Source: Escherichia coli
Lineage (GTDB): Bacteria; Pseudomonadota; Gammaproteobacteria; Enterobacterales; Enterobacteriaceae
Reading direction: 5' to 3' (one strand)
Assembly (NCBI RefSeq): GCF_050920415.1
Contig: NZ_CP169309.1
Length of the DNA: 64,000 bases
Positions 59,770-60,309 of the stretch are shown one piece after another. A model generated the notes under the pieces. The model worked only from the letters and a program-made list of their open reading frames with translations, made no database searches and was not told where the DNA came from. A program made the position numbers and the translations under genes. Position 1 is the stretch's first letter; each line of letters begins with the position of its first letter.

Positions 59770-60309
59770 ATGAGTAACTGGTGGCAGGAACTGTTACGTT
59801 TCTTCCTGCGTGGTCTTACGCTACAACAGTTAATTCATATGCTTATTATTTTAATTGCCCTGATAATAATCACCCCAGCATCAATTAAAGAGTGGGTAGA
59901 TATAAGGAACCCCGAAATACTTCCAGATCACTGGATGTATTACGCAATGCTTTTGTGTATCAGTTATGTTCTGAACAGGGTGATGGAGTTTATATTTCTG
60001 GCATCTTCAGACAGATATAAAAAATATCTCAGTAAGAGAGATGAGGATAAAGTAATTGTGGAGACTGAGCGCCTGTTCAATTCTCTGAGTATTCAGGAAA
60101 AAGAGGTTTTAGCATTTGCTGTTATGGCAAATAACAAAATCGTACTTAAGCACGGCGATCCGGTCGCTTTATCTCTTATGAGAAAAGGCCTTCTCCATCG
60201 CTCAGGTGTGACTTACAGCGCGTCAGGTAAAGAGAAATTTGTTATACCTGACGTCTGGTTCCATGAGTGTTATATGCGCTTTGCTGGTAAAGCTGATGAG
60301 CTAATTTAG
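59770..60309 (+). CDS. sieB: Superinfection exclusion protein B (SieB)-like membrane protein
   Basis: 179-aa ORF with N-terminal hydrophobic helices, on the strand opposite to N and ending 22 nt from the N stop, the arrangement I recall for lambda sieB. Confidence 0.55.
   Translation: MSNWWQELLRFFLRGLTLQQLIHMLIILIALIIITPASIKEWVDIRNPEILPDHWMYYAMLLCISYVLNRVMEFIFLASSDRYKKYLSKRDEDKVIVETERLFNSLSIQEKEVLAFAVMANNKIVLKHGDPVALSLMRKGLLHRSGVTYSASGKEKFVIPDVWFHECYMRFAGKADELI

What the first reader, a model, noticed from the sequence alone, without database searches (positions are those of the whole stretch)
59770..60309. SieB-like superinfection exclusion gene convergent with N
A 179-aa ORF with N-terminal hydrophobic helices lies on the strand opposite to the pL operon and ends 22 nt from the N stop, the position and orientation I recall for lambda sieB. 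Together with the rexAB-slot cassette this would give the prophage two exclusion functions flanking N.
Basis: inference. Interest (0 to 1): 0.35.

Follow-up and report, generated by a model that had tools for sequence, protein, structure and literature searches.

The report
Known P22-type sieB exclusion gene
The ORF is a real and intact copy of sieB, a prophage gene long known to make the host abort infection by rival phages; public databases already annotate it this way, so it is ordinary.

Summary
A 179-codon ORF lies at 59770-60309 (+). It has two N-terminal hydrophobic helices and ends 21 nt from the stop of a leftward N gene (60331-60714).

The interpretation also holds. The ORF scores 73.8 bits on Pfam SieB (cut-off 26) and E 4e-94 on PHROG 1301. 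It is 49% identical to the experimentally studied P22 SieB (E 1e-58). It is the P22 type, not the lambda type (about 21% identity).

The 31-nt sieB promoter annotated in P22 is identical at 59700-59730. The internal Met that starts P22 Esc is conserved (Met24, ATG 59839).

The exact protein is in NCBI as "super-infection exclusion protein B [Escherichia]". The allele occurs in 122 of 5426 complete E. coli genomes.

Two findings go beyond the annotation:
- An AlphaFold model (pLDDT 90.6) gives two transmembrane helices, a long helix and a winged-helix-like cytoplasmic domain.
- The leftward strand across the promoter and leader (about 59772-59663) carries a conserved structured RNA: two hairpins with GUAGGGG loops and a pseudoknot-like 3' end. 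Covariation supports it, and it is probably the sas antisense RNA.

No phenotype was tested. The claim that the rexAB-slot cassette is a second exclusion function remains unsupported. Verdict: correct but already known; low interest.

The parts
59770..60309 (+). sieB coding sequence (179 aa, stop included), P22-type allele
   Evidence: ORF list; Pfam SieB at 73.8 bits; PHROG 1301 at E 4e-94; 49% identity and E 1e-58 to P22 SieB; the exact protein is named 'super-infection exclusion protein B' in NCBI.
59839..60309 (+). Predicted esc reading frame: in-frame internal start at Met24, giving a 156-aa N-terminally truncated product
   Evidence: P22 Esc is annotated from Met25 of sieB. The aligned Met is present here and in 25 of 29 family members. 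As in P22, no Shine-Dalgarno precedes it. Translation of this frame was not tested.
59700..59730 (+). PsieB promoter; -10 TAAACT at 59725-59730; predicted transcription start at A59737
   Evidence: All 31 nt match the sieB promoter annotated in P22 BK000583/NC_002371, and the start site follows by position. In diverged alleles the -10 varies only within TAnnnT.
59737..59769 (+). sieB mRNA leader with Shine-Dalgarno GGAG at 59758-59761
   Evidence: Position relative to the P22 start site; sequence read directly.
59663..59772 (-). Conserved structured leftward (antisense) RNA element: anti-AUG/anti-SD segment, hairpin HP-B (59749-59729), hairpin HP-A (59718-59694), and interleaved stems CCAC/GUGG (59693-59676) and GCCUG/CAGGC (59686-59663). 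Probably the sas RNA.
   Evidence: 18 loci: 82.7% of cells paired against 29-44% when slid, and 9 pairs with double changes against 2.8+-1.4 in shuffles, 0/500. 28 loci aligned to a covariance model: 88.3% paired, 10 pairs with double changes, 0/500. G.U pairs favour the minus strand 31 to 7. The model scores 122.8 bits in the window at 59647-59775 (-). No Rfam family matches.
59704..59712 (+). Direct repeat CCCCTACAG, copy 1, at the -35 position of PsieB; its complement forms the HP-A loop
   Evidence: Read from the sequence; conserved in all diverged alleles.
59739..59747 (+). Direct repeat CCCCTACAG, copy 2, at +3 to +11 of the sieB mRNA; its complement forms the HP-B loop
   Evidence: Read from the sequence; conserved in the diverged alleles.
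60316..60353 (+). Terminator-like hairpin (11 pairs, 7 G-C) plus T-rich tail downstream of sieB; its right arm overlaps the last codons of N
   Evidence: Terminator scan; MFE -19 kcal/mol.
60331..60714 (-). N antiterminator gene, convergent neighbour (context)
   Evidence: Pfam N_peptide at 58 bits; 87% identical to N of Salmonella phage SPN9CC; unrelated to lambda N.
60963..60991 (-). pL promoter (TTGACA-17-GATACT). Its leftward transcripts read antisense through sieB.
   Evidence: Promoter scan; surrounding operator sequence read; cI is 99% identical to lambda cI.

Best explanation
This is an intact P22-type sieB gene of a lambdoid prophage with lambda immunity. It is most likely transcribed in the lysogen from its own promoter, PsieB, rightward, against the leftward pL operon. 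SieB is an inner-membrane protein. The model gives a short amphipathic N-terminal helix, two transmembrane helices, a long cytoplasmic helix and a winged-helix-like C-terminal domain. By homology with P22 SieB, it acts as an abortive-infection factor: when a sensitive lambdoid phage superinfects, host macromolecular synthesis stops midway through the lytic cycle and the infection fails. The same reading frame can also be translated from Met24 to give Esc, a truncated protein that neutralises SieB. When the resident phage, or an incoming phage with the same allele, transcribes leftward, a structured antisense RNA complementary to the sieB leader and start codon (sas) is made. This RNA blocks initiation at the sieB start while the esc start stays usable, so the phage's own lytic growth is protected.

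Shown here: family membership, gene anatomy, promoter identity, the conserved internal Met, the fold prediction and the conserved antisense structure.

Inferred from the P22 literature or from geometry: expression in the lysogen, the abortive-infection phenotype, Esc synthesis and its inhibition of SieB, the identity of the antisense element with sas, and the role of the winged-helix domain as sensor or interaction module.
For: - Family: Pfam SieB at 73.8 bits against a cut-off of 26; PHROG 1301 at E 3.9e-94; 49% identity and E 1e-58 to P22 SieB over 178 aa.
- Public annotation: the exact sequence is in NCBI as super-infection exclusion protein B. RefSeq annotates the allele the same way, and it occurs in 122 of 5426 complete E. 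coli genomes, 69 of them full length.
- Position and orientation match P22 and lambda.
- Promoter: identical 31/31 to the annotated P22 PsieB.
- Esc start: Met is conserved in 25 of 29 homologues, and three database proteins start exactly there.
- Antisense RNA structure.
- Third-codon-position variability among P22-type alleles is about 0.23 bits in codons 8-25 against 0.66-0.72 in codons 26-80. This fits an RNA-level constraint between the two starts.
- Literature: SieB stops macromolecular synthesis midway through the lytic cycle (PMC10461980). [quoted passage not shown] The sas RNA is a 105-nt cis antisense RNA that switches translation between the sieB-encoded peptides (PMC12197685).
Against: - Nothing was tested for expression or phenotype, and this allele has never been studied experimentally as far as the searched literature shows.
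- It is only 49% identical to P22 SieB (20% in the linker, residues 80-104), so target range and Esc cross-protection may differ.
- No sigma-70-like promoter for the antisense RNA was found in the window or in P22.
- The P22 coordinates of sas could not be checked because the 1993 papers are not held.
- PADLOC and NCBIfam have no matching model.
Confidence: 0.85

Rival explanations
1. The gene is a SieB homologue by descent but inactive here. It would be a moron remnant carried in a mosaic, possibly defective prophage, neither expressed nor able to exclude any phage in this host.
For: No functional data exist. About 53 of the 122 E. coli genomes with this allele carry only part of it, and truncated proteins of 90-133 aa sit in the same 90% cluster, so decay and recombination do occur at this locus. 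Related prophages have IS insertions nearby.
Against: The ORF is full length and matches the 179-aa form found in many genomes. Its promoter is identical to P22 PsieB. The Shine-Dalgarno, terminator and antisense element are all intact. Conserved family residues are present, including P36, L106, E110, L136 and K139-G140.
Confidence: 0.1
2. The nearly invariant non-coding block upstream of sieB (59662-59750) is only the PsieB promoter plus a homology 'linker' that lambdoid phages use to swap sieB cassettes. On this view it does not encode a functional antisense RNA, and the Esc switch, if any, relies on bulk pL antisense transcription.
For: The block contains the annotated promoter. It is 100% identical over 69 bp between this window and lambda although the proteins are about 21% identical, as expected after recent recombination. 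It accompanies both sieB types in 117 phage records. No promoter for a discrete antisense RNA was found.
Against: Diverged alleles keep the helices through compensatory changes: UUCUCG/CGAGAA becomes UUUCUCU/AGAGAAA, UCACUGG/UCAGUGA or CUCUG/UAGAG, and GCCUG/CAGGC becomes GCCGG(G)/(C)CCGGC. Ten pairs show double changes against 3.8+-1.4 in shuffles, 0/500. Wobble pairs fall on the minus strand 31 to 7, which DNA-level constraints would not produce. A 105-nt cis antisense RNA is documented for P22 sieB.
Confidence: 0.2
3. The protein's main role is not to exclude foreign phages. It would instead be a membrane-anchored regulator that uses its winged-helix domain to bind DNA or a phage or host protein, for example to tune the prophage's own development.
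For: The C-terminal domain resembles DNA-binding winged-helix repressors. The SieB mechanism is described as poorly understood.
Confidence: 0.05

Closest known systems
Salmonella phage P22 sieB / esc / sas (Susskind et al. 1974; Ranade & Poteete 1993)
   Same: Same Pfam and PHROG family, with 49% identity over the full length. The position, convergent with the N-type antiterminator, is the same. The PsieB promoter is identical. The Esc start Met is conserved. The leftward-strand structured element scores 139.6 bits in P22 and 122.8 bits here with one model.
   Different: The protein is 179 aa rather than 192 aa, lacking the 13-residue C-terminal tail. The linker (residues 80-104) is only 20% identical and the C-domain 45%. 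The leader and first codons differ, so each allele's antisense RNA is allele-specific. The host is Escherichia and the immunity region is lambda's. No experimental data exist for this allele.
Phage lambda sieB (lambdap48, 34482-35036)
   Same: Same slot and orientation next to N. A 69-bp promoter block is 100% identical, window 59662-59730 to lambda 34396-34464. The antisense element matches at 106.6 bits. The Met aligned with the Esc start is present. Lambda SieB is the same Pfam family by annotation.
   Different: The proteins are only about 21% identical in an alignment, and pairwise BLASTP is not significant (E 0.11). In lambda the sieB stop abuts the N stop, whereas here there is a 21-nt spacer.
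Lambda RexAB and other prophage abortive-infection membrane proteins
   Same: Prophage-expressed proteins near the immunity region that abort superinfecting phages rather than block entry (established knowledge; for position).
   Different: There is no sequence relationship. SieB is a single gene with an internally initiated antagonist. In this window the rexAB slot holds two unrelated ORFs of unknown function.

Membership tests
SieB family (Pfam PF14163; P22-type subgroup) | Profile match above the curated threshold | tested here: met
   73.8 bits against a gathering cut-off of 26, residues 23-154. PHROG 1301 at E 3.9e-94 over residues 1-179.
SieB family (Pfam PF14163; P22-type subgroup) | Significant similarity to the experimentally characterised P22 SieB | tested here: met
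   BLASTP 88/178 identical, 74% positives, no gaps, E 1e-58.
SieB family (Pfam PF14163; P22-type subgroup) | Small membrane protein with two N-terminal hydrophobic helices and a soluble C-terminal domain | tested here: met
   Hydropathy peaks at residues 16-38 and 56-79. The AF2 model has pLDDT 90.6, helices 18-34 and 55-104, and an alpha/beta domain at 108-171. The membrane location itself was not tested.
SieB family (Pfam PF14163; P22-type subgroup) | Location in the early-left region next to the N-type antiterminator, on the strand opposite to pL | tested here: met
   Window gene order is RecT-Kil-cIII-small ORF-[sieB +]-N-pL-cassette-cI. P22 and lambda have the same arrangement, as do diverged alleles next to N-like genes.
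SieB family (Pfam PF14163; P22-type subgroup) | Own promoter PsieB, independent of pL | tested here: met
   Window 59700-59730 matches the annotated P22 promoter 31/31. Promoter activity was not tested.
SieB family (Pfam PF14163; P22-type subgroup) | Internal in-frame initiation giving Esc, the inhibitor of SieB | tested here: inconclusive
   The start codon is conserved (Met24, ATG 59839; 25 of 29 homologues). Translation from it and inhibition of SieB cannot be tested with these tools.
SieB family (Pfam PF14163; P22-type subgroup) | Cis antisense RNA (sas) that switches translation from SieB to Esc | tested here: inconclusive
   A conserved structured leftward element overlaps the leader and start codon, and its size (about 110 nt) fits the 105 nt reported. 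However, the P22 sas coordinates could not be checked and no promoter was found.
SieB family (Pfam PF14163; P22-type subgroup) | Abortive-infection (exclusion) phenotype against superinfecting lambdoid phages | not testable with these tools
   Needs phage challenge of a strain carrying 59650-60360.
Lambda-type SieB subgroup | Close sequence similarity to lambda SieB | tested here: not met
   Pairwise BLASTP gives E 0.11 with no collinear alignment, and identity is 21% in the multiple alignment. A lambda-like representative is reached only at E 3.5e-4 by exhaustive phmmer (P0041).

The most novel reading that the evidence does not exclude
The leftward-strand element across the sieB promoter and leader may be a conserved, uncatalogued structured RNA class. 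It has two hairpins that display GUAGGGG loops complementary to a repeated CCCCUACAG, followed by an H-type pseudoknot with an A-rich loop. P22-type and lambda-type sieB loci share it across several enterobacterial genera. It would be the actual switch that lets a phage disarm its own abortive-infection gene. In the same reading, the winged-helix C-domain of SieB is the allele-specific sensor, and alleles are swapped as cassettes between this RNA block and the 3' end of N.
Probability: 0.35. Interest if true: 0.4.

Novelty: already known. Interest (0 to 1): 0.18.

Why it matters
For the scan, this finding can be closed.

The biological interest is limited. It shows that a lambda-immunity prophage carries a P22-type rather than a lambda-type sieB allele, another example of cassette exchange at this slot.

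The useful by-products concern a defence gene whose mechanism is still poorly understood:
- A confident structural model of SieB: a membrane anchor plus a winged-helix-like domain.
- Comparative evidence for a structured antisense RNA that has no Rfam family.

Together these give concrete handles (Met24, the hairpin stems, the pseudoknot) for testing how a prophage protects itself from its own abortive-infection protein.

Tried and rejected
- That sequence was unreliable, so the result is disregarded. It was replaced by the real lambda and P22 proteins taken from annotated records.
- **No matching model:** NCBIfam and PADLOC returned no family for the ORF, because they hold no SieB model. This is not evidence against the call.
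- **PDB by sequence:** nothing relevant.
- **Rfam over 59000-61300 at E<=1:** no hit.
- **Sigma-70-like promoter for the antisense RNA:** the standard scan found none in the window or in P22. A relaxed scan gave one 8/12 candidate on the minus strand (59873-59845, GTGATT-17-AATAAT). I found no equivalent when reading the P22-type sequences, so it was dropped.
- **Long-range mRNA helix:** RNAalifold predicted a helix pairing the sieB AUG region (59770-59778) with the 10 nt before the esc AUG (59828-59838), with one compensatory pair. On 15 diverse alleles, 90.7% of cells paired but shuffles gave 89.1%, and only 2 pairs had double changes (19/500). Three alleles lack the helix. It is kept only as a weak idea.
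- **HP-B:** this is the least consistent of the antisense helices (64-71% paired).
- **The search for related loci:** the broad alignment A3 failed because no stretch was conserved enough. It worked with the narrower A5.
- **Papers not held:** the two Ranade & Poteete 1993 papers and the lambda review I looked for under PMC4424060.
- **Literature search:** one search was uninformative because prefix matching picked up unrelated words.

Full report
**Observation.** The ORF exists as described: 59770-60309 on the + strand, ATG start, 179 codons. A GGAG lies 8 nt upstream. Hydropathy shows two hydrophobic segments at roughly residues 16-38 and 56-79. The neighbour on the right is a leftward 127-codon ORF (60331-60714) that matches the Pfam N-peptide family at 58 bits. 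The two stop codons are 21 nt apart. Upstream of N on the minus strand is a TTGACA-17-GATACT promoter at 60991-60963. Beyond it lies a cI gene 99% identical to lambda cI. The context is therefore the early-left arm of a lambdoid prophage with lambda immunity, in the order RecT, Kil, cIII, a small ORF, the finding, N, pL, a two-gene cassette, cI. P22 has the same layout.

**Identity.** The protein matches Pfam PF14163 (SieB) at 73.8 bits against a gathering score of 26. It matches PHROG 1301, 'superinfection exclusion', at E 3.9e-94 over its whole length. Against the experimentally studied P22 SieB it is 49% identical and 74% similar without gaps, E 1e-58. Against lambda SieB it is only about 21% identical in a multiple alignment, and pairwise BLASTP is not significant. 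It is therefore a P22-type allele sitting in a lambda-immunity prophage. Identity to P22 SieB is uneven: 63% in the membrane part (residues 1-79), 20% in the charged linker (80-104) and 45% in the C-terminal domain.

The exact sequence is already in NCBI as 'MULTISPECIES: super-infection exclusion protein B [Escherichia]'. The allele is present at 95-99% DNA identity in 122 of 5426 complete E. coli genomes, 69 of them full length, and RefSeq annotates it the same way. IMG/VR viral contigs hold it at 98-100% identity. No sequenced phage in the INPHARED collection has a SieB more than 60% identical to it. NCBIfam and PADLOC returned no family for it. An exhaustive phmmer search of 1.84 billion representatives found only 38 relatives at E<=0.001, so the family is small.

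**Regulatory anatomy on the sense strand.** The 31-nt sieB promoter annotated in the P22 records is present without a single change at 59700-59730. This places the equivalent of the mapped P22 RNA start at A59737 and gives a 33-nt leader. In alleles that are 30-50% identical at the protein level and come from other genera, the -10 hexamer varies only within TAnnnT: TAAACT, TATAAT, TAAAAT, TAACAT, TAGCAT, TACTAT, TAAGCT. Downstream of the stop is a strong hairpin (11 pairs, -19 kcal/mol) followed by a T-rich tail at 60316-60353. Its right arm overlaps the last codons of N. At 39.8% G+C against 48% for the window, the gene looks like a moron.

**Esc.** In P22, Esc is annotated as the same frame read from Met25. 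That Met aligns with Met24 here (ATG 59839). It is Met in 25 of 29 family members, including lambda SieB, and three database proteins were called from exactly that codon. As in P22, no Shine-Dalgarno precedes it. In the model, Esc would lack the N-terminal amphipathic helix and the first third of TM1. Translation from this codon remains untested.

**Antisense strand.** Aligning the upstream regions showed that a non-coding block is far more conserved than the gene. Window 59662-59730 is 100% identical to lambda 34396-34464 although the proteins have almost nothing in common. The block accompanies both sieB types in 117 phage records.

Read on the minus strand, the block folds into three parts:
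- Hairpin HP-B at 59749-59729.
- Hairpin HP-A at 59718-59694, stem UUCUCG/CGAGAA.
- Two interleaved stems, CCAC/GUGG and GCCUG/CAGGC (59693-59663). They have H-type pseudoknot geometry: loops of 3, 2 and 7 nt, the last A-rich.

Both hairpin loops carry GUAGGGG. This is the complement of a direct repeat CCCCTACAG that sits at the -35 position and at +3 of the sieB transcript.

Diverged alleles keep the helices through compensatory changes. HP-A becomes UUUCUCU/AGAGAAA, UCACUGG/UCAGUGA or CUCUG/UAGAG, and GCCUG/CAGGC becomes GCCGG(G)/(C)CCGGC. On a plain MAFFT alignment of 18 loci, 82.7% of cells pair against 29-44% when partners are slid. Nine pairs show changes on both sides against 2.8+-1.4 in shuffles, 0 of 500 reaching the observed value. 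On 28 loci aligned to a covariance model built with only two of the helices, the figures are 88.3% and 10 pairs, again 0 of 500. Wobble pairs fall on the minus strand 31 times, against 7 cells that would be wobble on the plus strand. The structured molecule is therefore the leftward transcript. HP-B is the weakest helix (64-71% paired).

The element runs from the complement of the sieB start codon and Shine-Dalgarno to the pseudoknot, about 110 nt. Reviews describe the P22 sas RNA as a 105-nt cis antisense RNA that switches translation between the two sieB-encoded peptides. I therefore consider this element the probable sas homologue. I could not confirm the P22 coordinates because the 1993 papers are not held. 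I also found no convincing promoter for it, so it may be processed from the pL transcript, which reads through sieB in antisense. Rfam has no matching family. Among 35 distinct P22-type alleles, third-position variability in codons 8-25 is about 0.23 bits against 0.66-0.72 in codons 26-80. This fits an extra RNA-level constraint between the two start codons. A predicted mRNA helix linking the sieB AUG to the sequence just before the esc AUG is conserved but has little covariation support, so I treat it as weak.

**Mechanism.** Combining these observations with the P22 literature, the most likely working model is as follows. SieB is made in the lysogen from PsieB and sits in the inner membrane. 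[quoted passage not shown] The phage carrying the gene escapes because leftward transcription yields the antisense RNA. This RNA blocks the sieB ribosome-binding site while initiation at Met24 continues, and Esc then antagonises SieB. Everything after 'SieB is made' is inferred for this allele. The trigger, the effector step and the role of the winged-helix-like domain are unknown.

The cassette between pL and cI (61216-62011) consists of a 123-aa protein and a 145-aa protein. The 123-aa protein has a weak XhlA-like coiled-coil match below threshold, and its sequence ends in a hydrophobic stretch. Both fall in PHROGs of unknown function, and the only PADLOC matches are weak, best E 0.0038. Calling it a second exclusion function rests only on its position in the rexAB slot.

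**Verdict.** The gene is already known and already annotated, so novelty is nil and interest low. The structured antisense element and the fold model are useful side results that could be taken further.

Noticed in passing
window 59663-59772 (-); also L002 1374-1500 (-), L003 1382-1503 (-): A conserved structured leftward RNA overlaps the sieB promoter and leader. It has two hairpins with GUAGGGG loops and a pseudoknot-like 3' end. Covariation supports it, with 10 pairs showing double changes (0/500 shuffles), and G.U pairs favour the minus strand 31 to 7. No Rfam family matches. It is probably sas.
   Followed up: yes
window 59662-59730 vs lambda 34396-34464: A 69-bp non-coding block is 100% identical to lambda although the adjacent SieB proteins are about 21% identical. 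The block accompanies both sieB types in 117 phage records. HK620 keeps only its left half (query positions 1-65).
   Followed up: partly
window 59704-59712 and 59739-59747 (+): The direct repeat CCCCTACAG occurs at the -35 position and at +3 of PsieB, 35 bp apart, and is conserved in all diverged alleles. The -35 region has no TTGACA-like hexamer. The repeat may therefore serve the antisense RNA loops or an unknown DNA-binding factor.
   Followed up: partly
window 59770-59841 (+) and P22-type alleles in L029-L088: Synonymous variation is about threefold lower in codons 8-25, between the sieB and esc starts, than in codons 26-80. A predicted helix pairs the sieB AUG region with the 10 nt before the esc AUG, but its covariation support is weak.
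   Followed up: yes
window 61216-62011 (-): The slot that holds rexAB in lambda, between pL and cI, carries two ORFs of unknown function. One is 123 aa (PHROG 6136) with a weak sub-threshold XhlA-like coiled coil and a hydrophobic C-terminal stretch. The other is 145 aa (PHROG 5893). Only weak PADLOC matches were found. Related prophages carry different cassettes here.
   Followed up: partly
window 60331-60991: There is a mosaic junction just downstream of pL. cI is 99% identical to lambda cI and the pL hexamers match lambda's as I recall them. N, however, is unrelated to lambda N and 87% identical to N of Salmonella phage SPN9CC.
   Followed up: partly
window 59600-60760: This sieB allele joined to this N allele is rare: only 2 of 5426 complete E. 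coli genomes cover at least 80% of the segment. In other genomes the homology to the sieB allele runs on to about 60396-60403, roughly 70 nt into the 3' end of N. The recombination joint therefore lies inside N, and the sieB terminator hairpin travels with sieB.
   Followed up: partly
window 59375-59608 (-): The 77-codon ORF is probably over-called. Only residues 35-74 match a 43-aa PHROG. A minus-strand terminator-like hairpin (59543-59523) lies inside the long form. An ATG at 59500 preceded by GGAG would give a 41-aa protein (sequence).
   Followed up: partly
window 59770-60309: sieB is 39.8% G+C against 48% for the window and for N, as is typical of a moron-like insertion.
   Followed up: no
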